Source of the DNA: Eledone cirrhosa
Taxonomy: Eukaryota
Length of the DNA: 64,000 nt
Direction of reading: 5' to 3'
Assembly: GCA_964016885.1 (NCBI GenBank)
Contig: OZ024744.1
Coordinates: forward strand, 32,364,001-32,428,000
A program made the translations under genes and the position numbers. The notes beneath the pieces were generated by a model. The model searched no databases, had not been told where the DNA came from, and saw nothing but the letters and a program-made list of their open reading frames with translations. The first letter of the stretch is position 1, and each line of letters begins with the position of its first letter. Positions 1-30,108 of the stretch are shown one piece after another.

Positions 1-3000
1 ACAAGTTGTGAGAATGTATCAGGAAAGAATCTCAGAATTCAGAGATCACAGTTCAGATACTGTGGACATGTGGTTAGAATGTCTCAGGAAAGAATCTCTG
101 ATTTGAGAGATCACAGCTCAGATAGTGTGGACATGTAGTTAGAATGTCTCAGAAAAGAATCTCTAAATTGAGAGACCACAGCTCAGATACTGTGGACATG
201 TGGTTAGAATGTTTCAGGAAAGAATCTCTAAATTGAGAGACCACAGCTCAGATACTGTGGACAAGTGGTTAGAATGTCTAAGGAAAGAATCTCTGAATTA
301 AGAGATCACAGCTCTGATACTGTGGACATGTGGTTAGAATGTCTCAGGAAAGAATCTCTGAATTGATAGATCACAGCTCTGATAGTGTGGACATGTGGTT
401 AGAATGTCTCAGGAAAGAATCTCTGAATTGAGATATCACAGATCATATACTATGGACATGAGTTTAGAATGTCTCAGGAAAGAATCTCTGAATTGAGAGA
501 TCACAGATCAGATACTGTGGACATGTGGTTAGAATGTCTCAGGAAAGAATCTCTGAATTGAGAGATCAAAGCTCAGATACTGTGGACAAGTGGTTAGAAT
601 GTCTCAGAAAAGAATCTCTGAATTGAAAGATCACAGCTCTGATACGGTGGACATGTGGTTAGAATGTCTCAGAAAAGAATCTCTGAATTGAAAGATCACA
701 GCTCTGATACGGTGGACATGTGGTTAGAATGTCTCAGGAAAGAATCTCTGAATTGAGAGATCAGAGCTCAGATACTGTGGACAATTGGTTAGAATGAATC
801 AGGAAAGAATCTTTTAATTGAGATATCACAGCTCAGATACTATGGATATATGGTTAGAATGTCTCAGGAAAGAATCTCTGAATTGAGTGATCAGAGCTCA
901 GATACTGTGGAGAAGTGGTTAGAATGTATCAGGAAAGATTCTCTGAATTGAGAGATCATAGCTCAGATACTGTGGGCATGTGTTTACAATGTCTCAGGAA
1001 AGAATCTCTGAATTGAGAGATCACAGCTCAGATATGGTGGATAAGTGGTGAGAATGTATCAGAAAAGAATCTCAGAATTCGGAGGTCACAGTTCAGATAC
1101 TGTGCACATGTGGTTAGAATGTCTCAGGAAAGAATCTCTGAATTGAGAGATCACAGCTCTGATACTGTGGACATTTGGTTAGAATGTCTCAGGAAAGAAT
1201 CTCTGAATTGAGAGATCAGATCTCAGATACTGTGGACAAGTGGTTAGAATGTCTCAGGAAAGAATCTTTGAATTGAGAGATCACAGCTCAGATATGGTGG
1301 ACGAGTGGTGAGAATGTATCAGGAAAGAATCTCAGAATTGAGAGATCACAGTTCAGATATGGTGGATAAGTGGTGAGAATGTATCAGAAAAGAATCTCAG
1401 AATTCGGAGGTCACAGTTCAGATACTGTGCACATGTGGTTAGAATGTCTCAGGAAAGAATCTCTGATTTGAGAGACCACAGCTCAGATACTGTGGACAAG
1501 GGGCTAGAATGTCTCAGGAAAGAATCTCAGAATTGAGATATCACAGCTCAGATAATATGGACATGTGTTTAGAATGTCTCAGGAAAGAACCTCTGAATTC
1601 AGAGATCACAGCTCAGATACTGTGGATATGTGGTTAGAATGTCTCAGGAAAGAATCTCTGAATTGAGAGATCACAGCACAGATACTGTGGACAAGTGGTT
1701 AGAATGTCTCAGGAAAGAATCTCAGAATTCAGAGATCACAGTTCAGATACTGTGGACATGTGGTTAGTATGTCTCAGGAAAGAATCTCTGATTTGAGAGA
1801 TCACAGCTCAGATACTGTGGACATGTGGTTAGAATGTCTTAGGAAAGTATCTCTGAACTGAGAGATCACAGTTCAGACACTGTGGACATGTGGTTAGAAT
1901 GTCTCAGGAAAGAATCTCTGAATTGAGATATCACAGCTCATATACAGTGGACATGGGGTTAGAATGTCTCAGGAAAGAATCTCAGAATTCAGAGATCACA
2001 GTTCAGATACTGTGGACATGTGGTTAGTATGTCTCAGGAAAGTATCTCAGGTTTGAGAGACCACAGCTCAGATACTGTGGACATGTGGTTAGAATGTCTC
2101 AGGAAAGAATCTCTGAATTGAGAGATCACAGATCAGATAGTGTGGACATGAGGTTAGAATGTCTCAGGAAAGAATCTCTGAATTGAGAGATCACAGCTCT
2201 GATACTGTGGACATGTGGTTAGAATGTTTTAGGAAAGAATCTCTGAATTGAGAGTTCAAAGCTCAGATACTGTGGACATGTGGTTAGAATGTCTCAGGAA
2301 AGAATCTCTGAATTGAGATATCACAGCTTAGATACTATGGACATGTGTTTAGAATGTCTCAGGAAAGAACCTCTGAATTCAGAGATCACAGCTCAGATAC
2401 TGTGGACATGGGGTTAGAATGTCTCAGGAATTAATCTCTGAATTGAGAGATCAGAGCTCTGATATGGTGGACATGTGGTTAGAATGTCGCAGGAAAGAAT
2501 CTCTGAATTGAGAGATCAGAGCTCAGATACTGTGGACAAGTAGTTAGAATGTATCAGGAAAGAATCTCTGAATTGATATATCAAAGCTCAGATACTATGG
2601 ACATGTGGTTCGAATGTCTCAGGAAAGAATCTCTGAATTGAGAGATCACAGATCAGATACTGTGGACATGTGGTTAGAATGTCTCAGGAAAGAATCTCTA
2701 AATTGAGAGATCACAGCTCTGATACTGTGGACATGTGGTTAGAATGTCTCAGGAAAGAATCTCTGAATTGAGAGATCAGATCTCAGATACTGTGGACAAG
2801 TGGTTAGAATGTCTCAGGAAAGAATCTTTGAATTGAGAGATCACAGCTCAGATATGGTGGACGAGTGGTGAGAATGTATCAGGAAAGAATCTCAGAATTG
2901 AGAGATCACAGTTCAGATACTATGGACATGTGGTTAGTATGTCTCAGGAAAGAATCTCTGATTTGAGAGATCACAGCTCAGATACTGTGCACATGTGGTT

Positions 3001-4777
3001 AGAATGTCTCAGGAAAGAATCTCTGAATTGAGACATCGCAGGTCAGATACTGTGGACATGGGGTTAGAATGTCTCAGGAAAGAATCTCTGATTTGAGACA
3101 TCACAGGTCAGATACTGTTGACATGGGGTTAGAATGTCTCAGGAAAGAATCTCTGAATTGAGAGATCACAGCTCTGATACTGTGGACATGTGGTTAGAAT
3201 GTCTCAGGAAAGAATCTCTGAATTGAGAGATCAAAGCTCAGATACTGTGGACAAGTGGTTAGAATGTATCAGGAAAGAATCTCTGAATTGAGATATCATA
3301 GCTCAGATACTATGGATATATGGTTAGAATGTCTCAGAAAAGAATCTCTGAATTGAGAGATCACAGCTCTGATAGTGTGGACATGTGGTTAGAATGTCTC
3401 AGGAAAGAATCTCTGAGTTGAGAGATCACAGCTCAGATACTGTGGACATGTGGTTAGTATGTCTCAGGAAAGAATCTCTGAATTGAGAGATCACAGCTCA
3501 GATACTGGGGACATGTGTTTAGAATGTCTCAGGAAAGAATCTCTGAATTGAGAGATCACTGCTCTGATAATGTTGACATGTGTTTAGAATGTCTCTGGAC
3601 AGAATCTCTGAATTGAGTGATCACAGCTCAGATATTGTGGACATGTGGTTAGAATGTCTCAGGAAAGAATCTCTGAATTGAGAGATCACAGCTCTGATAC
3701 TGTGGACATGTGTTTAGAATGTCCCAGGAAAGAATCTCTGAATTGAGAGATCACTGCTCTGATAATGTTGACATGTGTTTAGAATGTCTCAGGACAGAAT
3801 CTCTGAATTGAGTGATCACAGCTCAGATATTGTGGACATGTGGTTAGAATGTCTCAGGAAAGAATCTCTGGATTGAGAGATCACAGCTCAGATACTGTGG
3901 ACATGTTTTTAGAATGTCTCAGGATAGAATCTCTGAATTGAGAGATCACAGCTCTGATACTGTAGACATGTGTTTAGAATGTCTCAGGAAAGAATCTCTG
4001 ATTTCAGAGATCACAGCTCTGATACTGTGGACGTGTGGTTAGAATGTCTCAGGAAAGAATCTCTGAATTGAGAGATCACAGCTCTGATACTGTGGACATG
4101 TGTTTAGAATGTCTCAGGAAAGAATCTCTGAATTGAGAGATCACAGCTCAGATACTGTGGACATGTGGTTAGAATGTCTCAGGAAAGAATCTCTGAATTG
4201 AGAGATGACAGCTCTGATACTGTGGACATGTGGTTAGAATGTCTCTGGAAAGAATCTCTGAATTGAGAGATCACAGCTCAGATACTGTGGACATGTGGTT
4301 AGAATGTCTCAGGAAAGAATCCCTGAATTGAGAGATCACAGCTCAGATACTGTGGACATGTCGTTAGAATGTCTCAGGAAAGAATCTCTGAATTGAGAGA
4401 TCACAGCTCAGATACTGTGGACATGTGGTTAGAATGTCTCAGGAAAGAATCTCTGAATTGAGAGATCACAGCTTAGATACTGTGGACATGTGGTTAGAAT
4501 GTCTCAGTAAAGAATCCCTGAATTGAGAGATCACAGCTCAGATACTGTGGACATGTGGTTAGAATGTCTCAGTAAAGAATCCCTGAATTGAGAGATCACA
4601 GCTCAGATACTGTGGACATGTGTTTAGAATGTCTCAGGAAAGAATCTCTGAATTGAGAGATCACACCTCTGATATTGTGGACATGTGGTTAGAATGTCTC
4701 AGGAAAGAATCTCTGAATTGAGAGATCACAGCTCAGATACTGTGGACATGTTGTTAGAATGTCTCATGAAAGAATCT
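1..4777 (+). repeat. 65-bp satellite array, about 73.5 units, runs off the window start; derived from RTE LINE coding sequence
   Basis: Consensus CTCTGAATTGAGAGATCACAGCTCAGATACTGTGGACATGTGGTTAGAATGTCTCAGGAAAGAAT. The AGGAAAGAAT anchor recurs at 21, 86 ... 4766 (4745 = 73 x 65). Confidence 0.97.
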
Positions 4778-4805
4778 ACGTTTCGTAGCATTATTTTAAA
4801 TTCGT

Positions 4806-4966
4806 AGTATCGGTAGAGAGTCGGACACATAAAGTTAGACCCCTTGCCATTCTGAGTTCAAATCCCGCCGTGGTTAACTTTGCCTTTCATCCTTACGGGG
4901 TCGATAAAATACCAGTAATGCACTGGCTAATTGCTGGCCTTGAACCAAAAGTAGAAAACAATTATT
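4806..4966 (+). mobile_element. tRNA-derived SINE, 5'-clipped with an internal deletion
   Basis: B-box-like GAGTTCAAATCC; body matches copies at 37337, 45711 and 49015; ends CCAAAAGTAGAAAACAATT. Confidence 0.85.
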
Positions 4967-5432
4967 TTAAAACCTGGCTCAGCCCATCCCCTATCCAAGA
5001 CTGAATACAGCAGATTTCTTCCAGAGGACAGAGAGTGAAAGAAAGGAAGTAAGTAAAGGATATAGACTGGTACTGTTTTATAGACCTCGAATGGAGGAGA
5101 AGCAAAGTTGATTATAGATATACATAAACATATTAATAGAAATACTTGGTTAATTAATGTATCAATCAAAAATAAATGATTCATTATCTAATTCACTACG
5201 ACTGCATTGGGCTAAACCGATTCAGAACCATTGCCCATGTCTTTAACACTAAAATATAATTATAAAGATATATTAAAGAAAGAAGTCATTTGAGAAATAG
5301 AAAATAAAAATAAATTTTATGTATAAGAGAAAAGAGGATGTAAAACATTAACTCATTCAAAATGGATGTCTTCATTTGTCATTTATATGTTCCTATCTTT
5401 AAAAAAATGTATTATTCACCAGAAAGCGATAC

Positions 5433-5470
<38 letters not shown>

Positions 5471-5476
<6 letters not shown>

Positions 5477-6211
5477 ATTAAATAAATGGAAAACTATATT
5501 TATAAAACCATATTTATTTCATTATATATATTTCGGGGATATCATATTAACAATATGCTATGCCTTCATCAGACAAAATACAATATAAACAGTTTTATAG
5601 ATAAATAGATTCGACATACCGTTATAACACCGACTTCATTTGAAGAGGTTTAAATAAATAAATAAATAAATAAATGTATCATTGATACATTTACTCAAAA
5701 TGACCTCCCACTACCTAATTTTCTATATATGTATGTATCTATCTCTATTTCCTCTCTCTATATATGTGTATATCTCTTTCTGTTTCTTTACATGAAGTTC
5801 TTCTCTTTATCTATCTTTCCATCTCTCTATTTTGTTCCATGCATTTCTTCTTTTTCTTCTTTTTCTTCCTTTTCTTCGTTTTCTGTCTTTCTTTCTTTTT
5901 TCTCTCTTTCTTTCTCTCTGTGTAAAATTTTTTCACTGCCAGCTTAAACCTCTTCAAATGAAGTCGGTGTTATAACGGTATGTCGAATCTATTTATCTAT
6001 AAAACTGTTTATATTGTATTTTGTCTGATGAAGGCATAGCATATTGTTAATATGATATCCCCGAAATATATATAATGAAATAAATATGGTTTTATAAATA
6101 TAGTTTTCCATTTATTTAATATTGTAAATATACTCCAAATATTTGTCGAGTGCTTTTATATCAGTTATAAATATTTACTAGTTGTAACCCAACAATTTTA
6201 AATATAACTTT

Positions 6212-6213
<2 letters not shown>
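5471..6213 (+). mobile_element. Fold-back Penelope pLTR-like module in (TA)n; about 183-bp inverted arms 5471-5653 / 5944-6126
   Basis: Arms read as reverse complements; right arm extends by a unique tail to (TA)n; hammerhead motif in each arm. Confidence 0.8.
6017..6082 (+). ncRNA. Minimal type-I hammerhead ribozyme motif (mirror copy on - strand at about 5515-5580)
   Basis: TATTTTGT-CTGATGA(6025)-imperfect helix II-GAAA(6063)-TATATA-TA-ATGAAATA; helix I pairs with G-U. Confidence 0.75.
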
Positions 6214-6250
<37 letters not shown>

Positions 6251-6251
<1 letters not shown>

Positions 6252-6388
6252 CGGAGGAAATGTGGTAAGGAACCAGGTGGACCATAACGCACCAAAGTAC
6301 TCAATACTTAGGGTAGTAGAATGGGTAATAGGAACGAGTAGTACCCCGACGGCTGAGCTCAAGCCGTCGGGGTACTACTCGTTCCTAT
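6251..6388 (-). mobile_element. pLTR-like terminal fragment with a snap-back hairpin, between (TA)n tracts
   Basis: 6251-6367 is a diverged reverse complement of 11607-11723; 6328-6388 is a hairpin (ATAGGAACGAGTAGTACCCCGACGGCT / AGCCGTCGGGGTACTACTCGTTCCTAT). Confidence 0.65.
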
Positions 6389-6438
6389 ATATATATATAA
6401 ATATATATACATATATATATATATACATATATATATAC

Positions 6439-6494
<56 letters not shown>

Positions 6495-6499
6495 CTTAT

Positions 6500-7338
6500 A
6501 CCACTATTAGCTGCTAAAGGGTTCTCCCTAAAAATGAAAGGCAGGTTGTACGATGCCTGCATACGAACAGCAATGTTGCATGGTAGTGAGACCTGGGCAT
6601 TGTGTGCAGAGGATATACGCAGACTAGAGAGGAACGAAGCTTGCATGCTCCGCTGGATGTGTAACAGTAATATACGTGAACGGCAAAGCATAAACGAACT
6701 AAGGAAAAAATTAGAGATAAGAGGGATCAGATGTTGTTTACTCGAGAGAAGGCTGCGTTGGTATGGACACGTGATGCGCATGAAAGTCGATAGCTGTATT
6801 ACAAAGTGCAGGGCAATAAAGATAGACGGTAGCCACGGAATAGGCAGACCTAGAAAAACATGGGATGAGCTGATAAACTCCAACCTCATACACTTACACC
6901 TCTCCAAGACAATGTCACTGGACCGTGACCTTTGGCGGTACTCAGTAACAGAGAAGACCCGCCTTGCCAGTAGGCATCTCTAACAAACTACACCCCGTCC
7001 CGCCACCACCCCCACCCCATCCACACCACCCCGTTCCATGTAAAGTTATGTTGGTGCCGCGCCATCCAGGCCGAAACAAACGAGATCGTGTAGGTGTCAC
7101 GACAAAAAAACACACAGTCCACGCTGTAATGTGGCCGTGTAGGCAACACGGTAAAAACCTCCCAGACCCACACTGTAAATGTGGTTGGTGTTAGGAAGGG
7201 CATCCAACTGTAGAAAACCTGCCAGACAGTCCTATGCGAGCAAGACAATCACTCTTGCCTCAAGTGGGACTACCCCCGTCCAAACCCATGCAAGCGTGGA
7301 ACACGGACGTTAAACGTTGATGATGATGATGATGATGA

Positions 7339-7340
<2 letters not shown>
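6500..7340 (+). mobile_element. 5'-truncated RTE-clade LINE (ORF C-terminus 6534-6983, 3' region, (GAT)n tail)
   Basis: KGRLYDACIRTAMLHGSETW...RRLRWYGHVMRM...GRPRKTW...DRDLWR is the typical RTE post-RT C-terminus; tail at 7319-7340. Confidence 0.9.
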
Positions 7341-7384
<44 letters not shown>

Positions 7385-7550
7385 CGTCCTGACCTCAGCC
7401 GTCGGGGTCCTGACTCTTTTTCTTTATATATATTACTTTGGGAGGGTCATGCTGCCAATAAAAACACAGGCACCTATTGGTTTTGACTTCAATTTACTAT
7501 AAATTTCCGGTTGGTTGGTTGGTTCAATAACCGGATGGCTGGTAATATAT

Positions 7551-7596
7551 TGTCAAATTGTTTTCGTCACACATTCTGTGACCTCCTCAGTGACTG
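7551..7596 (-). ncRNA. Hammerhead ribozyme motif inside a pLTR-like repeat (7431-7660; homolog at 39150-39410)
   Basis: Minus strand: GTCA-CTGAGGA-G-GTCACA-GAATG-TGTGAC-GAAA-ACAAT-T-TGAC. Confidence 0.75.
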
Positions 7597-7664
7597 TGTT
7601 TTTATTTTGTGTTCCCCCCTTTGTTCTGTCTTACACCATCTTATGTGTAGTATATATAAACAAG

Positions 7665-7711
<47 letters not shown>

Positions 7712-7756
7712 GTGAACAAGTGAAGAATAACATAACCATCATGTATTCAGTCAGCC

Positions 7757-7820
<64 letters not shown>

Positions 7821-7856
7821 ATATATATACATTAAGATCTCTTCTTCTATATATAC

Positions 7857-7974
<118 letters not shown>

Positions 7975-8255
7975 GTGTGCAGATGTGTTTGTGTGTGCCT
8001 GTGTGTGTATATTTACTCATTGGAAATTATATAAATGTATAATACGCCATACACAAAATTGAAGAACTAGTCGAATCGTTAGAGCGCCAGAGAGAATAGC
8101 TTGCGGTATTATTTCGACACACTGGACTCTGTATTCAAAACACACCAGAGTTGATAAATGAAGAACTAAGTAACTACTGAATGGGGAGATCATTCTTCTG
8201 TCACCCCACCTCTCTCTCTCTCTCTCTCTCTCCCTCTCCCTCACTCTCTCTCTCA

Positions 8256-8286
<31 letters not shown>

Positions 8287-8829
8287 CCTTTCTCTTTCTC
8301 TCTCTCTGTCCTATAATTCAAAGGTAAAACTATATCACGTTGATTTGACGCGAGAACTACATAAACGTTACATATGTCTGTGGAATACTCAGCTACAATC
8401 ACTATAATTCCCATCAATACATCGTATCTTTCAGTAAAACATTTTATTTCACATTGCTTTACCATTTACATTACTCTATACTTACTATTATATTTTCACG
8501 GTAATGGCTTTATCTGACATAAATATCTCACATAATATCGAATCTATGAGATTTTGATATTATTTATTTTGAGAACAATACCTTAACGTTGGTATGAGCG
8601 ACCAGTTACAGCCGGTTTGTACAGAAAGAGGTGAGAAAATTCTGGCTAGATACGGTCGGTTTAAATGGTAAAGGATTAAAGGATCACACGTCTATGGAAT
8701 ACTCAACCGTTCTCATGTTAACTTCAGGAGCTGACTGTTTCATTGTTTTAAACACCCTAAAGTAGAAACAATTATTTCAGTAGTATGAATTCAGTCGATG
8801 GTTCCCTTACTTTACAAAATGTTGTAGTT

Positions 8830-9087
8830 TAATGTTGTTGTAGTTGTTGTTGTTGTTGTAGTTGTTATTGTTGTCGCTGTTGTTGTTGTTGTTGTTGTAT
8901 TGTGAGTTGCTTTTGTTCGCTGCTGTTTTTACTTTTGCTGCTGATGTTGTAGTTAATATTCTTATTGCTGTTGCTAATTGTTGTTGTTGTTGTTGTTATG
9001 GTTACTGTTAGTGTTGTTGTTGATACAGTTGCAGTTGATATTTTGTTGTTGGTTTAGTAATAGTAGTAGTAGTAGTAGTAGTAGTAG

Positions 9088-9142
<55 letters not shown>

Positions 9143-9253
9143 GCTACTACTACTACTACTACAACCACCACCACCGACACCACCACCACTACTACTACTA
9201 CCACCACCACCACCACTACTACTACAAGTAATACTACTACTACCACCACCACC
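8830..9253. repeat. Compound microsatellite (GTT)n/(TAG)n/(TAC)n/(CAC)n
   Basis: Direct reading; (TAG)n abuts (TAC)n, giving a self-complementary tract around 9088. Confidence 0.9.
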
Positions 9254-9254
9254 A

Positions 9255-9570
9255 TCTTACATTTAGAAAACACACATTAGACAACCATGCAGAACAACTC
9301 CATCGCAGCTCTGTTGTTCGGCTGGCATCGTCTACGCGCGTGTTGCGCAAGTACTGTGAAACAATAAATTTCAACACTTCTTTGCACAGAGGTAATATCC
9401 ATAGGCGAAACTACAATTGTCACTGCTGGCGCAGCTCCTGCTTCGGCAGTCAAGGTCTGCAATTCATTCACCCAGTGCCTGGCAGACAAAAAGGTGCTGC
9501 CATAAAATGGGTGGTGCAACCTAACTCTGGTAACTTACTAATCCCGAGCAACGCCGGGCTTTAATGCTAG
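9255..9570 (+). mobile_element. Non-autonomous Helitron-like element
   Basis: 3' hairpin CCCGAGCAACGCCGGG, then CTAG (9567-9570) followed by T; candidate A|TC start at 9255 (5' end tentative). Confidence 0.6.
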
Positions 9571-9571
9571 T

Positions 9572-11595
9572 ATATAATATAGTTAAATCTTAGACAGGAA
9601 CAAAAACAGAGAGTTAGTACAAATAATGGTTTATTAGATTTACGCTTTTGAGAGTGGGGGTGTGGGGGACGACATTTCGGGCATAAGCCCTTCATCAGGA
9701 GAAAAGTGTGTAGGAAGAAAGTTCCGAGGGTGTGTGGTGGAGTGGTGGAAAGACATTTTAAAAAAAGGTGGGGGACGATTTTCTTTTTAGAAGTACAAAT
9801 AAAAATAAAAATAAAAATAAACAAAAATAAACAAGTGGTGGAAGGGTGTGAGGCGTGTAGGGGTGGTGGCGGATGGAGTTGAGAGAGGGAGGCGGGGGGT
9901 CCGAGCGGGGAGGGCTGAAGGTGGCGTTTGTGTATGTGTGTAGGTGTACGTGTGTGTGTGTGTATGTGAATGTGAGAGGTGGGGGAAGAACGAGGTTCCA
10001 TGTTCAGCTAAAGGGGAACAGTTGTGTACATGAGGTGGGGTGTAAGTCGGTTATTGCGTGAGGATGGAGAGGGCTCAGAGGGTGGGGGAGGAAGGGGGGG
10101 GGGCGTGTGGATTCCGGAGGCTGAGTGTGTGTATGTGGGGATACGCATGTGTGTGTTTGTGTTTATACGGGATGTAGATGTAGGTGTCGTGATTCGTGAG
10201 TAAGTTCCTAAAGTAGTTCCGTGGAGTGTGCGATAATATGTTGGATATTTCTCCTGTTATAGAGTGGATAGCTGGAACGGTGACCAGTGGTGTGCAATCC
10301 AATTTTGTGGTAGTGCGGAAGTGGAGAGATGTAGGGTGCGCGCGCAACAGGAAGTGGTCAGAGGGTCAAGGCAGGGTGAAGAGATAGCAGTAGAGGTGGA
10401 TGACAGGTGAAGAAAGGGTCTGTATGTGGTCTGTGTGTCTGTGTGTGCGGAGGTGCGGTGGACAAGGGGAGGGGAGGGGTAAGTGTGAAAGGTAGAGGGA
10501 GAAGGTGGTGGTGTGGGGGGATGGGGTGTATTTTAGTGGAGGTGTTAGTGGGTTGTTTGTGTGTGAAGGGGTGTAGGTGGAGTGGGGAGAAGGAGAGGGA
10601 GAGAAAAGGTGTTGGGGACGGAGGAGGGAGTGTAGTGTGCTGGTGTGTGTGTGCGTGTTTAGATGAGTGTGTGTGTGGTAGAAGGGGTTTTAGTGGGTGT
10701 TAGTATTACTGGTGGTGGGGAAAGGGTTGAATGCGGGTGTGTTAGTGGGGGTGAGTGGTGGTTGGGTGTGTGGAGTGGGTGATGTACGTAGGTGTGGGTG
10801 TGTGTATGTGTGATGGTGTGTGTTCGTGTGCGTGGGATTGGGGGGATGTTAGTGATATTAGATGTGGGGTGGTCGGAGTGGATGTGTGGGTGGGGGATAG
10901 TTGTGGTAGTAGGGTGTGTGGATAGTGTGAGTTCGTGTATATATGTACAGGTAGGTGTGTGCGTGTCTGAGGGGAGGTATGGGTGCGCGGGTGTTAGTGG
11001 GGGGGGGTGTTAGTATTGAAAGTTGGGGGAGGTCAAGGGGGTCGGGCGGTGAAAAGGAGGAGTGTGTTAGTGGTGTTAGTGGGGGATATGTGGGGGCAAG
11101 GTAGGCGGTCGAAGGCTAATGGAATAGGGGTGAGGAGTTCAGGCCGGGGTGTGTGGGTCTGTAAGGTGAAGATGGTGTGTTGTTCGTGCATGACGCGGGT
11201 GGCTGGTATTCCATGGCATTGGATCAGGCCACAGACTGTGAGGTGGTGGGCGGAATGTCCAGGGGAGCCAAAGTGGCGGGCGATGGCGGAACTACCGCCG
11301 AGACGAATATCCCGGAGGTGTTCAGTGAAACGATCCACCAGGCGACGTCCAGTCTGTCCGACGTAGGTTGCGCTGCACTCCGTGCAGCGAAGTCCATAGA
11401 CTAGGGAGGTGCAGCGGAAGGTGTGCCGTTGGGACCCTGGAAGGTGGTGGGATTGGTGATGTGGAGGCAGGTGTGGCAGCGAGGCCTGGAGCAGGGAAGT
11501 GAAATGGGGGGATTGGGGGGTAGGGGGCTGTGGACGAGGAGGGTGCAAAGATTGCGTGCGCGTTTGAACGAGGGGATGGGTGGGGATGGGAAGAA
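9572..11595 (-). mobile_element. 5'-truncated Penelope-like element: GIY-YIG endonuclease remnant (about 11033-11480) and long 3' region
   Basis: FRCTSLVYGLRCTECSATYVGQTGRRLVDRFTEHLRDI...AIARHF...HEQHTIFTLQT; hammerhead core and AATAAA near its 3' end. Confidence 0.88.
9668..9702 (-). ncRNA. Hammerhead core at the PLE 3' end (helix I degenerate)
   Basis: Minus strand: CTGATGA-A-GGGC-TTAT-GCCC-GAAA-TGTC. Confidence 0.65.
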
Positions 11596-11722
11596 ATAAC
11601 CGTCGAAACGGCTTGAGCTCTGCCTCGGGGTCATACTTTCTCCTATTACCCACTCTACTACCATAAGTATTGAGTACTATGGTGCGTTATGGTCCATCTG
11701 GTTTCTTACCACAACTCCTCCG

Positions 11723-12860
<1,138 letters not shown>

Positions 12861-13074
12861 TATATACAAGGGGAGAGAGGGAGAGAGAAGAGGAGTGAGA
12901 GAAGAGGAGAGGGGAGAAATTATGGGAATATATATGTATATTATATAATGGCAAACGTAAGATGAAAGAAAGAAAGAAAAAAAATGAAAATATGTGCTGA
13001 AAATTTAAAATTGCTTCCCAGATATTCTCTTAAGTATTTCTGTAGTCTGGCAACATCTTAAACAATAGTGTACA

Positions 13075-15085
13075 ACATCTACAACAACAATAACAGCAAC
13101 AGCAATACATACAAGACAAACAATAGCAATAAAAAAATCAACAGTAATAATAATAATAACAACAACAGCAGCAGCAGCAGTAACAACTCCGTCAATAACA
13201 ACTGCAACAACAAAAACAACAATAACAGCAATTAGAGACAAGTTAACAACAACGACAACGGCAACAACAACAATGTACAGAAATAACAGTCGCAACAGCA
13301 ACAAAAATAACTGTAACAACAACAACAAAAGCATTGTCAACAGAAACAACAACAGTAAAAACAACAACAGTAACAACAACAGTAACAACAACTACAGTAA
13401 CAACAACAACAGTAACAACAACAACAGTAACAACAACAACAGTAACAACAACAACAGTAACAACAACATCACTAACAACAACAGTAACAACAACAGTAAT
13501 AACAACAACAGTAACAACACAACAGTAACAACAACAACAGTAACGACAACAACACTAACAACAACAATAGCAACAACAACAGTAACAACAACAACAGTAA
13601 CAACAACAACAGTAACAACAACAACAGCAATAACAACAACAGTAACAACAACAACAACAGTAACAACAACAACAGTAACAACAACAACAGTAACCACAAC
13701 AACAGTAACAACAACAGTAACAACAACAGTAACAACAACAGTAACAACAACAACAGTAACAACAACAACAACATCAAAAACAGTAACAACAACAACAGTA
13801 ACAACAACAACAACAGTAACAACAACAACAGTAACAACAACAACAGTAACAACAACAACAACAGCAACAACAACAACAACAACAGCAACAACAACAGTAA
13901 CAACAACAACAACAGTAACAACAACAACAGTAACAACAACAGTAACAACAACTACAGTAACAACAACAACAACAGTAACAACAACAACAACAACAGTAAT
14001 AACAACAACAACAACAACAGTAACAATAACAATAACAACAACAACAACAACAGTAACAACAACAACAGTAACAACAACAACAACAACAGTAACAACAACA
14101 ACAGCAACAACAACAACAGTAACAACAACAGTAACAGCAACAGCAACAACAACAACAACAGTAACAACAACAGTAACAACAACAACAGTAACAACAACAG
14201 TAACAACAACAGTAACAACAACAGTAACAACAACAGTAACAACAACAGTAACAACAACAACAGTAACAACAACAGTAACAACAACAACAACAGTAACAAC
14301 AACAACAGTAACAACAACAGTAACAACAACAGTAACAACAACAGTAACAACAACAGTAACAACAACAACAGTAACAACAACAGTAACAACAACAACAACA
14401 GTAACAACAACAACAGTAACAACAACAGTAACAACAACAGTAACAACAACAGTAACAACAACAACAGTAACAACAACAGTAACAACAACAACAACAGTAA
14501 CAACAACAACAGTAACAACAACAGTAACAACAACAGTAACAACAACAACAGTAACAACAACAGTAACAACAACAACAACAGTAACAACAACAACAACAAC
14601 AACAGTAACAACAACAGTAACAACAACAGTAACAACAACAGTAACAACAACAGTAACAACAACAACAGTAACAACAACAGTAACAACAACAACAACAGTA
14701 ACAACAACAACAGTAACAACAACAGTAACAACAACAGTAACAACAACAGTAACAACAACAGTAACAACAACAACAGTAACAACAACAGTAACAACAACAA
14801 CAACAGTAACAACAACAACAGTAACAACAACAGTAACAACAACAGTAACAACAACAGTAACAACAACAGTAACAACAACAACAGTAACAGCAACAGTAAC
14901 AACAACAACAACAGTAACAACAACAACAGTAACAACAACAGTAACAACAACAGTAACAACAACAACAGTAACAACAACAGTAACAACAACAACAACAGTA
15001 ACAACAACAACAGTAACTACAGCAGTAACAACAACAGTAACAACAACAGTAACAACAACAGTAACAACAACAGCAACAACATTGA
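13075..15085 (+). repeat. About 2-kb (AAC)n array punctuated by AGT
   Basis: Units of GTA(ACA)3-5; degenerate at the 5' edge, homogeneous internally. Confidence 0.95.
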
Positions 15086-16238
15086 CAATCACATGAACAA
15101 CAATGGATTGTTGTTATTCTTTTAATCTTTTATTCTGTAACACAATGTGTAGTTTCATTCGTTATAATGCGGTCATGCTGGGGCAACGCCTGCATAATAA
15201 TCATTATATCGATGTCAGCAACCTTTTCTTTTCATTTTTTTTGTCTGGAACTTATTTTATCACTTCTAAAAGTCTGAAAGAAGGACGAAAAGAAAGGAAG
15301 ACGTGGAACGAAAGACACACTGGTTTGATGCACCGTATATTTCTAGGTCTACGCCTATACACGTACACATACACGTGCCCGCATACACGATTATACTGGG
15401 CGTAAAAGTGCTTGGGGTATATTGGGGTATGTTGAAGTATGCTGAGGATATATTGCATCCGGTCCCGAAAATTTCCTGGGATTTCAGAAAATGTTTACAT
15501 ATATTGAAGACTAGACTAATGTTGATATTCTGAAGGAAATCGGGACATGAATAGAAATGTGTAACCATTGATAAAATTCTTACCCATTGTGGGACTGTGG
15601 AAATGTTCTGCAGATATTTTGGGTAATTGTGATATAAACTGGTACACAACTACCAGAACTCCACTGGTAGCTGGTATGTACTCTGGTTGGTAAATTTGAG
15701 GAAATGTCCTATACATAAGTAGGGTAAACTATGATAGAAGCTGATGCAGTATTGGAATAAGCGTCGGTAGACCAATAATGTAAACCACCAGGTTGCGGTG
15801 GACTTGTGCTAACAACTTGAGACGGTTTTATGGCAGGTAGGGTAAAGGTGTCTTAATTAATATTGTCCGCATCGATGACATACGTTAGACAGTCTTAAAC
15901 AAAGCTGAGACTCGGTTGCTACAAGCCATCACATCTTTGCCATGTGGAGAATCGACAGACGGTAAAGTCGTTTCACTGAGGCTTACACAACTATCACCAT
16001 TATAAACAATTATTGTACAGGATTTGTTTATCACAGGTTCTAGGCGATAGAAAACCCGCAACAGGTTCAATTGGGGATGTTGATGAATATATCTAGCATG
16101 GAACCTGCACGTATGACGGCTCCACCATGAGGTTAATATTTTCCTGTTGTTCTAGTGGAGCGACCAACACCACCTACTAGAATTTGAGGTGGATCAAAAT
16201 AAAAAAATTCTGAAAGGGAACTTGCTTCCTTCTGCACA

Positions 16239-16332
<94 letters not shown>

Positions 16333-16559
16333 AATCAGGATGGATTCAGTTTGAAATTGTTTAGGTCCTTACTCAACAGAGTACTAGATAGTTGGGATAG
16401 TAGAGCATGCTTATGTTATAAAGAGTCAGGACCCCGACGGAGAAGTTTTTGCCATTACAACAGCCAGTTCCATAGTCTAAAACTGGGTGTTGAAACGGCA
16501 AGAACTAACCGTAGAGGTTCTGACTCTTTATAACACACACACATACACACACACACGCG

Positions 16560-16633
<74 letters not shown>

Positions 16634-16653
16634 TATATATATATATATATATA

Positions 16654-17596
16654 CAAAATTAAATTAAGGTTGTCATGTCTGAGAGACATGCGCCATATTC
16701 ACTGCAGAATAAGCTCAAAGATTCCAATGAATAGATCCGAGCATTTTATATCAACTAGAAATAGATTGACATATATATATATATAATAAACACATGAAAC
16801 AATCTCAGGGAATAATTTGTAAAGTGTGTAAGCACACATAGCTAGGTAGGTAACTAATTAAAGTTTAACTAGAACTTCAAATACAGATACCTTTTAAAAT
16901 GATTAATCTCCTTTGTATATATTTCTTTAAATAAAAAAATATATTTTACCAATTAACCAGTAAATCACAGCGGTCAAATCCCGGATGGTCACCAAAGGAG
17001 AAAGATCCATGTGTTTATTTTATATATATATATGTCAATCTATTTCTAGTTGATATAAAATGCTCGGATCTATTCATTGAAATCTTTGAGCTTATTCTGC
17101 AGTGAATATGGCGCATGTCTCTCAGACATGACAACCCTTAATTTAGTTTTGGATATATATATACGGCTCCTTGGTTGTAGAGCTAATTCAGTTGAATGGA
17201 CTCGGTTGCTATTTCTAGCTGTCGATAATCCTATTCACGCCACTGGGATGACGTGTTGCGATGTCTGTATTTTTTATAAAATGCAACATGTGGTTCGAGT
17301 CATTCACAGATTTGCATTTGCTGTGTAAACGCAAATGGTTGGATCTTCTCCTTTGGTGACCATCCGGGATTTGACCGCTGTGATTTACTGGTTAATTGGT
17401 GAAATATATTTTTTTATTTAAAGAAATATATACAAAGGAGATTAATCATTTTAAAAGGTATCTGTATTTGAAGTTCTAGTTAAACTTTAATTAGTTACCT
17501 ACCTAGCTGTGTGTGCTTACACACTTTACAAATTATTCCCTGAGATTGTTTCCTGTGTTTATTTTATATATATATGTGTCAATCTATTTCCAGTTG

Positions 17597-17600
<4 letters not shown>
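16654..17600. repeat. Nested inverted duplication of an unclassified repeat
   Basis: 16654-16796 is inverted at 17009-17150; 16758-17008 is inverted at 17341-17600. Confidence 0.85.
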
Positions 17601-17621
<21 letters not shown>

Positions 17622-17629
<8 letters not shown>

Positions 17630-17985
17630 CGTATTTAAGAAAGCCACAACAATGCAAAGGGAAATCTCGAGGTAGGAAGTGAAATATAGATAGGAAAAAC
17701 AGGTGAAAGTGAAAGTTGAGAGAGACAAAGATGAAAACAAAACAAAGGTAGAAGGGTTACCGTAGTAGAGATTTTAATCCCAATATTTCGGGCTCAAAAA
17801 TCTCTACTACGGTAACCCTTCTACCTTTGTTTTGTTTTCATCTTTGTCTCTCTCAACTTTCACTTTCACCTGTTTTTCCTATCTATATTTCACTTCCTAC
17901 CTCGAGATTTCCCTTTGCATTGTTGTGGCTTTCTTAAATACGTATTTTTACACATTTCACAATGCTTCAAGCAAACTTTAACACC

Positions 17986-17988
<3 letters not shown>
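17622..17988. mobile_element. Fold-back module in (TA)n; 154-bp arms 17622-17775 / 17797-17950
   Basis: Arms are reverse complements; spacer keeps only half a hammerhead (- strand GCCCGAAATATTGG); tail CACAATGCTTCAAG resembles the tail at about 44268-44283. Confidence 0.8.
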
Positions 17989-18046
<58 letters not shown>

Positions 18047-18048
<2 letters not shown>

Positions 18049-18175
18049 TCATCATCTACTTATTCCTGAGTCTTGTCAGAAGCAACAGTCTCCAATTGAT
18101 CCGGTTAGATCCCTAAGCGCAATTAGCCAAGCTCATGTATGTTATCCAACCATGTTGCTCGGGTTTACCACTGCG
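18047..18175 (-). mobile_element. 3'-end fragment of the same RTE/Expander family as 21820-23520
   Basis: Reverse complement aligns to 23343-23520 with an internal deletion. Confidence 0.75.
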
Positions 18176-18351
18176 CTACCTGTCGGTTGGGTTTGCTCAT
18201 ACATATATTCCTTTTATCTAGGCTAAATAATGAGTTTTGTTACTCTCGAGTTTCGCCTATCACAGGATCATTTGACTTCGGCATTGAATACTCTTTTCTC
18301 TCAGCCGTCACACTCCATCCATCCCTTCAATCTATCTTATTTCTCATTCTT

Positions 18352-18469
18352 TCCACTGATGAAGCACTAGCGTCCGAAACATTAAGACCCACTTCCTGCT
18401 ATTTTAAGCCGTTAACCTAATATATTCCTTTCATATGCTGTACTGATTGTGTTGTTATTTCTGTTTACC

Positions 18470-18553
<84 letters not shown>

Positions 18554-18593
18554 TTGTGTGTGTAAAGGGTAAACAGAAATAACAACACAATCA

Positions 18594-18597
<4 letters not shown>
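18352..18597 (+). repeat. Degenerate hammerhead core (18356-18380) followed by an inverted repeat 18441-18597 enclosing (CA)n(TA)n(TG)n
   Basis: CTGATGAAGCACTAGCGTCCGAAAC; arms TACTGATTGTGTTGTTATTTCTGTTTACC / GGTAAACAGAAATAACAACACAATCAGTA. Confidence 0.6.
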
Positions 18598-18677
<80 letters not shown>

Positions 18678-18721
18678 AAGTTAAATAAAAGTCAAATGAT
18701 TAAAATTTAGCTTCGTTTATT

Positions 18722-18776
18722 ACTGCTATATATATTTCAGTGACAGCCATCTTTGGCTGTGACCTCTTCAGGCAGT
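18722..18776 (-). ncRNA. Hammerhead ribozyme motif
   Basis: Minus strand: ACTGC-CTGAAGA-GGTCACAGCCAAAGATGGCTGTCACT-GAAA-TATATA-TA-GCAGT; perfect helix I. Confidence 0.85.
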
Positions 18777-18902
18777 TTGAATTAGTATGGTATAGACAAG
18801 TACATATGTTGTTTAGGTGTATGATATTGTCAATACTCTGATATGCCCAGTTCCTTGTTGGGTTGTTAACACCAACAACACCACCACCACCAACACCACC
18901 AC

Positions 18903-18970
<68 letters not shown>

Positions 18971-18973
18971 ATT

Positions 18974-19160
18974 TAGAAATGGCTTCTACAGGACTAGAAC
19001 TGTTTCATTTGGGAGAAATCATTAGGGCCTTCCTGATGATTTCTCCCGAATGAAACAGTTCTAGTCCTGTAGAAGCCATTTCTATATCAAATATTTATAC
19101 TCTGCTATATATTGAGTGCCTTACTTACTGTGGTTACCACCGATTGCACCCGGGATACAT
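18974..19160 (+). mobile_element. Short fold-back pLTR module with hammerhead (19026-19078); family also at 28494-28552 and 38521-38710
   Basis: CTGATGA(19033)-TTTCTCCCGAAT-GAAA-CAGTTCTAG-TC; inverted arms 18974-19025 / 19033-19084. Confidence 0.75.
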
Positions 19161-19444
19161 AATTTCTTGTCTACAAATTCTTCATATGTGTTCTATAAGG
19201 AAATTAATTTTTTAGGGTTCATCACATATATGAGGAATGACATTCCGTTCGTGACCATCTAATCTTTATTCAGGTATAGTGTATTTAGAACTACATTATC
19301 CAATGTGTACTTCATTATTGCTCTTGCCGTGTATACTTGACAGAGCAGAACTATAATATAAAAGTGCGTTCCTTCCATGGCACTCCCATCTTCAATTCAG
19401 AAACATTGCACCTAGAACTTCGTAATAATAAGAACAGCGGCAGT

Positions 19445-20983
19445 ACCAATAGCAACAACAGTAAAACAACAACAACAACAACACCGTCGCCACCACCAAC
19501 AACAACACGACCACCAACAACACCAACAACAACACCACAAACACCACCACCAACACCAATGACAACAACAACACCCCCAACATCACCAACAACAACAACA
19601 CCAACCACAACACCAACACCAACACCACCAACACCACCAACAACAACAACTCCAACCACAACACCAACACCACCAACACCACCAACAACAACAACACCAA
19701 CCACAACACCAACAACCACAACACCAACAACACCAACAACAACAACTCCAACCACAACACCAACAACACCAACACCAGCAACAACAACAACTCCAACCAC
19801 AACACCAACAACAACACCACCAACACCACCACCAACAACAACTCCAACCACAACACCAACAACAACACCACCAACACCACCAACAACGACAACTCCAACC
19901 ACAACACCAACTACACCAACACCAGCAACAACAACAACTCCAACCACAACACCAACAACCACAACACCAACAACACCAACAACAACAACTCCAACCACAA
20001 CACCAACAACACCAACACCAGCAACAACAACAACTCTAACCACAACACCAACAACAACACCACCAACACCACCAACAACAACTCCAACCACAACACCAAC
20101 AACAACACCACCAACACCACCAACAACGACAACTCCAACCACAACACCAACAACACCAACACCAGCAACAACAACAACTCCAACCACAACACCAACAACC
20201 ACAACACCAACAACACCAACAACAACAACTCCAACCACAACACCAACAACACCAACACCAGCAACAACAACAACTCCAACCACAACACCAACAACAACAC
20301 CACCAACACCACCACCAACAACAACTCCAACCACAACACCAACAACACCACCACCACCACCACCAACACCACCACCAACAACAACAACACCACCACCAAC
20401 ACCACCACCAACAACAACACCAAAAACAACACCAACAACACCACTAACAACACCAGCACCAACCACAACAACAACGACACCACCACCACCACCAACAACC
20501 ACAACAACAACACCAACCACAACAACAACGACACCATCACCACCAACACCAACACCACCACCAACACCACCACCAACATCAACACCAACACCACCACCAC
20601 CAACAGCAACAACAACCACAACAACACCACCACCACCAACCACAACAACAACACCAACCACAACAACAACACCAACCACAACAACAACGAGACCACCTCC
20701 ACCACCACCACCACCCACAACACCAACACCAACACCAACAGAACCACCAACATCAACACCATCACCACCAACACCAACACCACCACCCACAACACCACCA
20801 CCAACATCAACACCAACACCACCAACATCAACACCAACAACACCAACACCAGCACCAACAGCCACAACAACAAAAACGACAACACCACCACCACCACCAC
20901 CACCACCAAACACAACAACATCTTCGCCACCGCCACCACCACCAACAACGACAACAACAACAGCCCCGCCACCAACAACAACC

Positions 20984-21019
<36 letters not shown>

Positions 21020-21526
21020 CCAACCACAACAACCACGACACCACCACCACCACCACCACTACCAATACCAACACCAACAACAGCCACACCACCAACAACA
21101 ACAACACCACCACCAACACCAACAACAGCCACACCACCAACATCAACACCACCACCACCAACAACAACAACAACCACAACACCACCAACAACAACAACAA
21201 CGACTTCGCCACCATCACAACCACCACCAACAACAACAACAACAATAGCCCCACCACCACCACCACCAACTTCACCACCAACACCACCACTACCACCACC
21301 AACAACAACAACAACAGCCCCACCCAACAACAACAACAACAACAGCAGCCCCACCACGCGCACCACCAACACCAACACCACCACCACCACCAACAACAAC
21401 AACAAATTCCCCACCACCAGCACCAGCACCACCACCACCACCACCAACACCAACTTCACCACCAACACCACCAGCACCACCACCACCACCAACACCAACT
21501 TCACCACCAACACCACCACTACCAAC

Positions 21527-21558
<32 letters not shown>

Positions 21559-21570
21559 CAATAACAACAT
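19445..21570 (+). repeat. (AAC/ACC)n compound array with about 240-bp higher-order repeats
   Basis: Sequence at 19981 recurs at 20221, and 19921 recurs at 20161. Confidence 0.92.
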
Positions 21571-21819
21571 CAAGATATCAACTTTTCAAAGGTCTCTATT
21601 TCCTTTCATTTATCAATTATTGTTGAAATATTTATGATCTTTATGTCCTACATAGGATATTTACAGTCGTACGATTAAAGGACAATCCATTCGTGGCTAT
21701 CCAATGTGGATATGCAGTATAGCTAGAACTCTATTACCCACGTCAGCAACGCCAGCAGTAGCAATAACAACAATTGCAGCAACAAAATTAACATTTTTAA
21801 CAACAACAACAAGGGAGGG

Positions 21820-23520
21820 AGGCATAAAAGCCAAATTTGCAATCTTCAATTCGATATTTGTACGAACCCTTACCTATGGTTGTCTTGTGTAATGACCGAA
21901 AGAATAGTGTTGGGAATACAAACGGCTGAAATGGGGTCTTCTGAAAGGTCTTTGGAGTAACGTTACTCGATAGAGTGTGTAGCTCGGAGATCAGAGAGTT
22001 GCTCCAGGTAGAGCTGCTACTTCTCCGAATTGAGGGATCGCAGATCCGATACTATGGACATCTGGTTAGAATGTCTCAGGATATCAGAGAGTCACTCCAG
22101 GTAGAGCTGCTACTTCTCCGAATTGAGAGATCACAGATCCGATACTATGGACATCTGGTTAGAATGTCTCAGGAAATCAGAGAGTCACTCCAGGTAGAGC
22201 TGCTACTTCTCCGAATTGAGAGATCACAGATCCGATACTATGGACATCTGGTTAGAATGTCTCAGGAAATCAGAGAGTCACTCCAGGTAGAGCTGCTACT
22301 TCTCCGAATTGAGAGATCACAGATCCGATACTATGGACATCTGGTTAGAATGTCTCAGGATATCAGAGAGTCACTCCAGGTAGAGCTGCTACTTCTCCGA
22401 ATTGAGAGATCGCAGTTCCGATACTATGGACATCTGGTTAGAATGTCTCAGGAAATCAGAGAGTCACTCCAGGTAGAGCTGCTACTTCTCCGAATTGAGA
22501 GATCACAGATCCGATACTATGGACAGGTGGTTAGAATGTCTCAGGAAATCAGAGAGTCACTCCAGGTTGAGCTGCTACTTCTCCGAATTGAGAGATCACA
22601 GCTCTGATACTATGGACATCTGGTTAGAATGTCTCAGGATATCAGAGAGTCACTCCAGGTAGAGCTGCTACTTCTCCGAATTGAGAGATCACAGATCCGA
22701 TACTATGGACAGGTGGTTAGAATGTCTCAGGAAATCAGAGAGTCACTCCAGGTTGAGCTGCTACTTCTCCGAATTGAGAGATCACAGCTCTGATACTATG
22801 GACATGTGGTTAGAATGTCTCAGGAGATCAGAGAGTCACTCCAGGTAGAGACTCTACTTCTCTGAATTGAGAGATCACAGATCCGATACTATGGACATGT
22901 GGTTAGAATGTCTCAGGAGATCAGCGAGTCACTCCAGGTAGAGACTCTACTTCTCTGAATTGAGAGATCACATCTCTGATACTATGGACATGTGGTTAGA
23001 ATGTCTCAGGAGATCAGAGAGTCACTTCAGGTAGAGCTGCTACTTCTCTGAATTGAGAGATCACATCTCTGATACTATGGACATGTGGATAGAATGTCTC
23101 AGGAGATCAGAGAGTCACTTCAGGTAGAGCTGCTACTTCTCTGAATTGAGAGATCACATCTCTGATACTATGCACATGTGGTTAGAATGTCTCAGGAGAT
23201 CAGAGAGTCACTTCAGGTAGAGCTGCTACTTCTCTGAATTGAGAGATCACATCTCTGATACTATGGACATGTGGATAGAATGTCTCAGTAAAGAATCGTT
23301 GGACAGATTTTACAGGCAACACCAACATGTAGGAGACCCAGGAGTAAACCCTGAGCAACATAGTTGAATAACATGCATGAGCTTGGCTGGTCACGCTTGG
23401 GTATCCAGCCGGATCATTTGGAGAGAGTTGCTTCTGACAGGACTCGTTGGAAGGAGTGTTTAAGGACTCTGCTCCCACGACACTCTCAGGAATAAGTGGG
23501 TTGAGTAGAAGTTGAAGAAG
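21820..23520 (+). mobile_element. 5'-truncated RTE-clade (Expander/Rex3-like) LINE with an internal tandem amplification
   Basis: KAKFAIFNSIFVRTLTYG..VMTER..IQTAEM..TLLDRVCSSEIRE.LQVELLLLRIERSQ.RYYGHLVRM, then after the array RIVGQILQATP...DRTRWKECL. Confidence 0.88.
21990..23291 (+). repeat. 93-bp (31-codon) tandem repeat, 14 units
   Basis: ATCAGAGAG anchor at 21990, 22083, 22176 ... 23199. Confidence 0.97.
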
Positions 23521-29824: not shown

Positions 29825-29886
<62 letters not shown>

Positions 29887-29896
29887 GTTATTGTTA
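29697..29896. repeat. (TTC)n grading into (TTA)n
   Basis: Direct reading. Confidence 0.97.
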
Positions 29897-30107
29897 TTCC
29901 TTGAATCTCAGTTATTGATGTTGGTTAACTGGAAAGTCCGTTGGATTGAATATCAAGCCACTACCTGCAGCCTCAGATATTCAGGACGTATCGGAGGGTT
30001 CTTGCCGTTCCAAGCAAGCATGCCTTTTGAAGCGTTCCAAAAAGCGTGAAGGGGCCGATTTTCTTTAACCATCCCTGGAAACCTTTGGAGATAGTCCCCA
30101 GTGCGCC

Positions 30108-30108
<1 letters not shown>
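29897..30108 (-). mobile_element. 212-bp 3'-end copy of the adjacent R4/Dong-like element
   Basis: Near-identical to 30162-30373; (TAA)n on both sides. Confidence 0.9.

What the first reader, a model, noticed from the sequence alone, without database searches (positions are those of the whole stretch)
1..23291. Two different tandem repeats born from the same LINE coding segment
Seen: the 65-bp satellite unit matches the 3' part of the 93-bp unit 17 kb away plus the AAGAATC exit found only after the 14th unit (23291-23297). It shares diagnostic bases with the 3' units (CTCTGAATT, CATGTGG) rather than the 5' units (CTCCGAATT, CATCTGG). The 93-mer still sits inside its parent RTE/Expander element. 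Inference: the RIERSQLRYxGHVVRMSQ-coding stretch is a hotspot for satellite birth, captured here at two stages.
Basis: partly seen in the sequence, partly recalled or inferred. Interest (0 to 1): 0.72.

Follow-up and report, generated by a model that had tools for sequence, protein, structure and literature searches.

The report
Satellites colonise dead LINE copies nearby
Two tandem repeats here are built from the same short coding stretch of an old jumping gene, and each shares private base changes with a partner array sitting in a different dead copy of that gene nearby, so the arrays are likely copied from one dead copy into another rather than born afresh at each site.

Summary
In detail: both units come from one segment near the 3' end of an old non-LTR retrotransposon's reading frame. 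The two-stage story does not. The 14-unit 93-bp array shares private variants with an 81-kb, ~868-unit 93-bp satellite 108 kb upstream, which sits in an unrelated LINE copy. The 65-bp haplotype recurs in an 8-unit array 1.26 Mb away, again in another host. Genome-wide, at least 113 copies carry the 65-bp junction, 110 a 123-bp junction and 11 the 93-bp junction. They cluster by chromosome: C25 holds 42 of the 65-type and none of the 123-type. Units are less diverged than their hosts (2.1% vs 10.7% in 20 C25 loci). Best reading: rare junction births, then likely spread between dead LINE copies by ectopic gene conversion or circle reinsertion, then local expansion. TE-derived satellites and interlocus spread are each known; this is a new variant with base-level donor/recipient pairs. 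This scan noted similar cases earlier on other DNA of this genome.

The parts
1..4777 (+). 3' end of a 31.3-kb, ~482-unit 65-bp satellite (family positions 338-402). It begins upstream of the window inside its own 5'-truncated LINE copy (G000:C28:32,337,265) and ends at a junction with no LINE 3' flank.
21808..21985 (+). 5' flank of the host LINE copy of the 93-mer (family positions 117-299, 5'-truncated, decayed)
21986..23288 (+). 14-unit 93-bp array (31 codons, family positions 303-395); a mosaic of haplotypes that also occur in the 81-kb satellite 108 kb upstream
23289..23511 (+). 3' flank of the host LINE: exit AAGAATC (23291-23297), end of the reading frame, short 3' end and decayed GAA-type tail
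18070..18196 (-). Separate small fragment of the same LINE family (positions 421-548), too short to hold the segment; no array

Best explanation
Both arrays are satellites made from one segment of an old non-LTR retrotransposon, and each likely spread by being copied from an existing array into another dead copy of that element nearby. Step 1 (inferred): a junction arises rarely by tandem duplication in one copy; the 93- and 65-bp junctions lie at 2-3 base microhomologies, the 123-bp junction at none. Step 2 (sharing shown, mechanism inferred): a break in another old copy is repaired on an array as template (interlocus gene conversion) or takes up an array-derived circle, which brings in the junction and the donor's unit variants while the host keeps its own flanks. 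Step 3 (inferred from sizes of 2 to ~868 units): unequal exchange expands some arrays in place. The window's 14-unit 93-mer is likely a colony of the 81-kb satellite upstream; the 65-bp array likely seeded, or shares a seed with, the 8-unit array 1.26 Mb downstream. No function for the host is proposed.
For: (1) 93-bp pair: A358 is in 7 of 14 window units and 512 of 861 giant-array units, but 1 of 71 single copies and 0 of 78 units of ten other 93-bp arrays. C376: 6/14, 277/861, 0/74, 0/78. Two multi-site haplotypes are shared likewise (4/14 vs 176/861 and 4/14 vs 29/861; 0 in controls). The hosts differ at 39 of 207 3'-flank bases, have different 5' ends and share no outer flank. (2) 65-bp pair: the exact 39-base haplotype has 39 matches in the genome: 32 in this array, 6 in the array at C28:33.63 Mb on the other strand, 1 at C28:120.2 Mb. 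The two hosts differ at 28 of 174 5'-flank bases. (3) Territories: C25 (1% of the genome) has 42 of 113 65-junction ends and 0 of 110 123-junction ends; C23+C24 have 3 and 30. C1-C5 hold 95 of 192 baseline copies but 11 of 113 and 4 of 110 junction ends. (4) Units younger than hosts: last unit 23/1080 (2.1%) vs flank 313/2919 (10.7%) in 20 C25 loci; 3.6% vs 8.4% in the first 30 listed 65-type loci; 7.0% vs 8.2% in 49 single copies. A two-unit locus (L189) has 0/54 vs 9/107. (5) Hosts are separate insertions with their own truncation points and tails and star-like flanks.
Against: Direction and pathway are not shown. Shared variants could come from later exchange between arrays that each arose alone. 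For 123-bp arrays the unit-versus-flank gap is small (6.2% vs 9.1%; baseline 7.0% vs 8.3%), so that family may be old or partly inherited from a source element. The ten other 93-bp arrays and the 7-unit array at C28:31.05 Mb mostly carry their own variants, and the 111- and 125-bp arrays look born in place. The TACAGAC variant also occurs in 100 copies without the 65-junction genome-wide, none on C25, so it is not array-specific. Some loci are segmental-duplicate pairs. I picked the 20 C25 loci out of 42, and all showed the shared variant in the listing; shared and CpG sites were masked, and the search pattern fixes 5 of the 54 unit positions measured. No empty allele or ortholog of any host was seen.
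Confidence: 0.75

Rival explanations
1. Each array was born independently in its host at the same microhomology, and neighbouring arrays were homogenised later by interlocus conversion.
For: GGA microhomology at the 93 junction and TC (5 of 6 after CpG decay) at the 65 junction. Scattered 93-bp arrays with host-private variants. One-off periods exist.
Against: The 123 junction has no microhomology yet recurs at 110 or more loci. Junction type is chromosome-specific (42:0 on C25 vs 3:30 on C23+C24). Only 11 loci match the 93-end pattern against 2,495 for the ordinary context, yet one lies 108 kb from the giant array.
Confidence: 0.13
2. A source LINE already carried the duplication and retrotransposed it; arrays then expanded in the progeny.
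For: Every host has a normal 3' end and tail, one two-unit locus has a clear target-site duplication, and several begin inside the first unit. 93, 111 and 123 keep the frame. Known for LTR12 and Ogre (PMC3389668, PMC7004042, passages).
Against: Host flanks share no subfamily variants. Units are younger than flanks. Baseline copies follow chromosome size while junction copies do not. 65 breaks the frame.
Confidence: 0.08
3. One reading: the 65-mer descends from the 3' units of this 93-mer, an early and a late stage of one birth.
For: Same segment, same strand, 17 kb apart; the 65-mer majority is 3 changes from units 9-11.
Against: The 65-bp array has its own host; it shares no private change with the 93-mer; its junction is at 113 or more loci and in contigs of two differently labelled organisms.
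Confidence: 0.02

Closest known systems
Rsp-like satellite spreading into 1.688 clusters on the Drosophila simulans-clade X (PMC7403614; abstract and passages read)
   Same: One junction reused at many loci of a chromosome; a rare microhomology event followed by homology-seeded spread; interlocus gene conversion or eccDNA proposed.
   Different: There the landing pads are another satellite. Here they are dispersed dead LINE copies, and the satellite is made of the landing pad's own sequence.
TE-derived minisatellites with positional hotspots in AluS and LTR12 (PMC3389668; passages read)
   Same: Tandem repeats start inside TE copies, and some TE regions yield more of them.
   Different: In the passages read, hotspots are put down to local initiation or to propagation by transposition, with no obvious genomic hotspots; here there are chromosome territories and variants shared between hosts.
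Satellites containing LINE ORF2 or 3' sequence: chicken HinfI/CR1, Phodopus PROsat, seal Pvc 20, common cetacean satellite (as listed in review PMC9659126; passages read)
   Same: Satellite monomer homologous to the 3' part of a LINE.
   Different: Those are cited as single families with partial similarity; here several periods come from one segment and the arrays still sit between both host flanks.
Ogre LTR-retrotransposon 3'UTR repeats expanding to satellites in Lathyrus sativus (PMC7004042; passages read)
   Same: A series from short in-element arrays to long satellites within one genome.
   Different: Ogre repeats are carried by the element and lie in a non-coding region; here they are coding sequence and appear to be acquired after insertion.

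Membership tests
Non-LTR retrotransposon (LINE) | Reverse transcriptase upstream of the segment in longer copies | tested here: met
   L202 frame: RVT_1 E=3.4e-6, 27.4 bits, below the 29.6 curated cut-off; best solved-structure matches are R2 and LINE-1 ORF2 proteins, E 4e-5 to 5e-4
Non-LTR retrotransposon (LINE) | Variable 5' truncation, fixed 3' end with simple-repeat tail, target-site duplication | tested here: met
   a 20-base duplication flanks L157; not sought systematically
RTE clade | RT phylogeny within RTE; single ORF with APE endonuclease | not tested
   No tree and no full-length copy examined; the RTE label rests on recalled features (short GAA tail, short 3' end, C-terminal RLRWxGHV-like motif) and comes from no call
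TE-derived satellite DNA | Long head-to-tail arrays whose monomer aligns to a TE | tested here: met
   31.3-kb and 80.6-kb arrays, units about 86-95% identical to the family majority
Element-borne tandem repeats (Ogre/LTR12 type) | Repeat inherited from the source element: carriers share flank variants and units are as old as flanks | tested here: not met
   Star-like flanks and younger units for 65-bp arrays; weaker for 123-bp arrays
Homology-seeded satellite spread (Rsp-like type) | Same junction at many loci, clustered on one chromosome | tested here: met
Homology-seeded satellite spread (Rsp-like type) | Inserted units discordant with the resident host sequence | tested here: met
Homology-seeded satellite spread (Rsp-like type) | Repeat present on extrachromosomal circles, or 3D contact between donor and recipient | not testable with these tools
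   Needs Circle-seq or Hi-C
Centromeric satellite | CENP-A binding; one large array per chromosome | not testable with these tools
   No ChIP data; arrays are many, mostly small and uneven between chromosomes, which does not suggest it

The most novel reading that the evidence does not exclude
A tandem junction behaves as a self-spreading element with no transposase: it homes by recombination into dead copies of its parent LINE, takes over most eligible copies on a chromosome (all 3 in 200 kb of C25), and different junctions hold different chromosomes as territories. Old LINE relics would then be the road network along which satellites disperse.
Probability: 0.5. Interest if true: 0.78.

Novelty: new variant of a known kind. 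Interest (0 to 1): 0.6.

Why it matters
How satellite arrays reach new loci is an open question that is usually argued without a known landing site. Here hundreds of dated landing sites (old LINE copies with private mutations) hold arrays whose donors can be traced base by base, including two donor/recipient pairs around this window. That makes conversion versus circle reinsertion, distance decay and direction testable with population assemblies, Hi-C and circle sequencing.

Tried and rejected
Descent of the 65-mer from the window's 93-mer: rejected. Segmental duplication of whole loci as the general cause: outer flanks are not shared for the two local pairs, and among 20 C25 loci only short shared repeat pieces appeared; a few duplicate pairs exist elsewhere. 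A SINE sharing the LINE 3' end as the cause of 5' ends near position 420: no common upstream sequence by eye, apart from duplicate loci. TACAGAC as an array-specific marker: rejected, 100 copies without the 65-junction carry it. A short higher-order repeat in the 31-kb array: none; best lags 130, 61 and 69 units. Locus-specific orthologs from public runs: no run covered the unique flank at 95% identity, so inconclusive. No RNA holder listed. Pfam on the array's own frame gave only sub-threshold noise. A recalled cephalopod genome paper could not be read (not held), so nothing rests on it. Paper searches listed no paper on arrays spreading between dead LINE copies; I saw listings only for most, the library lacks most subscription journals, and no supplements were read. 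A look-up of earlier scan notes by sequence returned nothing.

Full report
What is in the window. Tandem Repeats Finder gives a 65-bp array at 11-4777 and a 14-copy 93-bp array at 21986-23288. The 93-bp unit is 31 codons in the frame of a decayed retrotransposon ORF, with LINE sequence on both sides. The window is G000:C28:32,364,001-32,428,000 in a 3.0-Gb genome. I aligned 22 array-free copies to get a family reference with positions 1-618. The 93-bp unit is positions 303-395 and the 65-bp unit is 338-402. Longer copies carry reverse transcriptase: RVT_1 below its curated cut-off, and matches to R2 and LINE-1 ORF2 structures. The RTE label is recalled, not tested by a tree. The family is old and common: 4,624 exact matches to one 21-mer, which 11 of 30 sampled copies match, and about 8% non-CpG divergence.

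The 65-bp array runs upstream to a total of 31.3 kb and about 482 units, and starts in its own 5'-truncated copy. That host differs from the 93-mer's host at 25 of 139 aligned 5'-flank bases. The two bases called diagnostic are the family majority state and a CpG decay found in 29 of 67 single copies. The 65-mer's own changes (A361, G368) are absent from all 14 units of the 93-mer.

The segment does yield many arrays. Eight of the top 30 loci for the LINE 3' end, this one included, carry arrays of it with periods 93, 111, 123 or 125. Patterns that catch the last unit plus the LINE 3' flank give 113 loci for the 65 junction, 110 for the 123 junction and 11 for the 93 junction, against 2,495 for the ordinary context; all are exact-match lower bounds. 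The 65-junction 30-mer has 14,383 exact matches; 135 of about 482 units here match it, so the family is about 1-3 Mb. Contigs from two differently labelled organisms bridge the 65 junction at 85% likeness, so it is not private to this assembly. Each host examined is a separate insertion with its own 5' end and tail.

Arrays are not spread like the LINE. A random subsample puts 95 of 192 copies on C1-C5, against 11 of 113 and 4 of 110 junction loci. C25, 29 Mb long, holds 42 of the 65-type and none of the 123-type; C23 and C24 together hold 3 and 30. Five of the 11 93-type loci lie within 3 Mb on C19. Among copies picked by one internal variant without the 65 junction, 8 of 20 on C19-C28 carry arrays and 0 of 30 on C1-C3. 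In 80 copies on C1-C2 picked by a 3' 21-mer, 3 carry a duplication of this segment (two of them a duplicate pair) and 1 carries a 49-bp array of another segment. In 200 contiguous kb of C25, chosen where arrays were known, all 3 copies that cover the segment carry 65-bp arrays.

Units are younger than their hosts. With CpG and shared sites masked, the last unit differs from the family at 2.1% of sites and the adjacent 3' flank at 10.7% in 20 of the 42 C25 loci, which I picked; 3.6% vs 8.4% in the first 30 listed 65-type loci; 7.0% vs 8.2% in 49 single copies. Flanks share no subfamily variants. An array inherited from a source element, or grown only from its host, should be as diverged as its flank. 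For 123-bp arrays the gap is smaller (6.2% vs 9.1%).

Two donor/recipient pairs surround the window. First, an 80.6-kb array of about 868 93-bp units lies at C28:32,197,438-32,278,022, between the 5' part and the 3' end of its own LINE copy. The window's 14 units share its non-CpG variants A358 (7/14, 512/861) and C376 (6/14, 277/861), which occur in 1 of 71 and 0 of 74 single copies and in 0 of 78 units of ten other 93-bp arrays; two multi-site haplotypes are shared too. The hosts differ at 39 of 207 3'-flank bases and share no outer flank. Second, the 39-base 65-mer haplotype occurs 39 times in the genome: 32 in this array, 6 in an 8-unit array 1.26 Mb away on the other strand in another host, and once at C28:120.2 Mb. 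Sequence has therefore moved between arrays in unrelated old insertions. That the move also created the small arrays is inferred from how rare the 93 junction is elsewhere. The direction from large to small is inferred from size and diversity only.

Mechanism. Shown: same segment, reused junctions, separate hosts, unit variants shared across hosts, clustering by position. Inferred: rare junction birth at short microhomology (GGA for 93, TC for 65, none for 123); repair of a break in a single copy on an array template, or reinsertion of an array-derived circle; expansion by unequal exchange. Births in place also occur: the 111- and 125-bp arrays and most scattered 93-bp arrays carry host-private variants. 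The segment may be favoured because it lies mid-way in the usual 300-600 bp remnant, with homology on both sides, and because existing arrays multiply the template; this is untested. Samples not picked through a junction show 5 distinct junctions inside the segment (61, 65, 93, 97/99, 123) and 2 outside (49, 92), which is suggestive only. A second, related LINE family (71% DNA identity to the element at window 6495-6983) has an 80-bp array of the homologous coding stretch.

Comparison and novelty. Satellites with LINE sequence are known (PMC9659126, passages), as are TE regions prone to tandem duplication (PMC3389668, passages) and element-borne repeats that grow into satellites (PMC7004042, passages). 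The closest process is Rsp-like spreading into 1.688 clusters (PMC7403614, abstract and passages). Eight searches listed no paper in which dead LINE copies are the landing pads, within the library's limits. Earlier unreviewed notes of this scan describe similar cases on other DNA of this genome; I had written my reading before that look-up, and they are not independent support. I class this as a new variant of a known kind, of interest mainly because the donor/recipient pairs make satellite dispersal directly testable.

Noticed in passing
G000:C28:32,197,438-32,278,022 (L339-L337, L327-L332): 80.6-kb, ~868-unit 93-bp satellite enclosed by both ends of one LINE copy, 86 kb upstream of the window start.
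   Followed up: yes
G000:C25:9.0-9.2 Mb (L267-L286): The stretch is crowded with tandem arrays of other dispersed repeats: a 72-mer at about six sites, an 80-mer from a second LINE family at three sites, and 48-, 50-, 52-, 95-, 117-, 139-, 155- and 200-mers (part of that output was cut). Array formation in dispersed repeats looks like a general habit of this chromosome.
   Followed up: partly
L080:1619-2181 (C1:13.28 Mb) and C25:9,096,077-9,097,098: Arrays from other parts of the same LINE: 49 bp at positions 539-596 (5-base microhomology) and 92 bp near position 1.
   Followed up: partly
L045 (C26:15.21 Mb): One 123-bp duplication followed directly by a long 65-bp array in the same host, so junctions can stack.
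   Followed up: no
C28:112-121 Mb (L043, L044, L049, L054, L062, L063): A 64-bp deletion variant of the 65-mer forms its own local cluster of arrays.
   Followed up: partly
L093 and L095 (C1:18.10 and 18.31 Mb): Two 123-junction copies share the 3' outer flank but not the 5' flank; L095 has a short inverted piece at its 5' end.
   Followed up: no
window 6495-6983: 5'-truncated copy of a second, related LINE family with an open 162-codon frame over the homologous C-terminal region.
   Followed up: partly
window 31054-36089 and 49249-62172: Several long decayed elements with an ORF1-like frame followed by endonuclease- and RT-like frames, at least three in a row on the + strand (L1/Tx1-like by recalled motifs).
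   Followed up: no
window 39471-41249, 45075-46601, 11033-11686: Frames resembling Penelope-type RT and GIY-YIG elements by recalled motifs.
   Followed up: no
window 5473-6210: About 5480-5650 and 5960-6130 look by eye like the two arms of a long inverted repeat, perhaps a foldback element.
   Followed up: no
window 29843-30373: 265-bp unit duplicated at 97% between TTA microsatellites.
   Followed up: no
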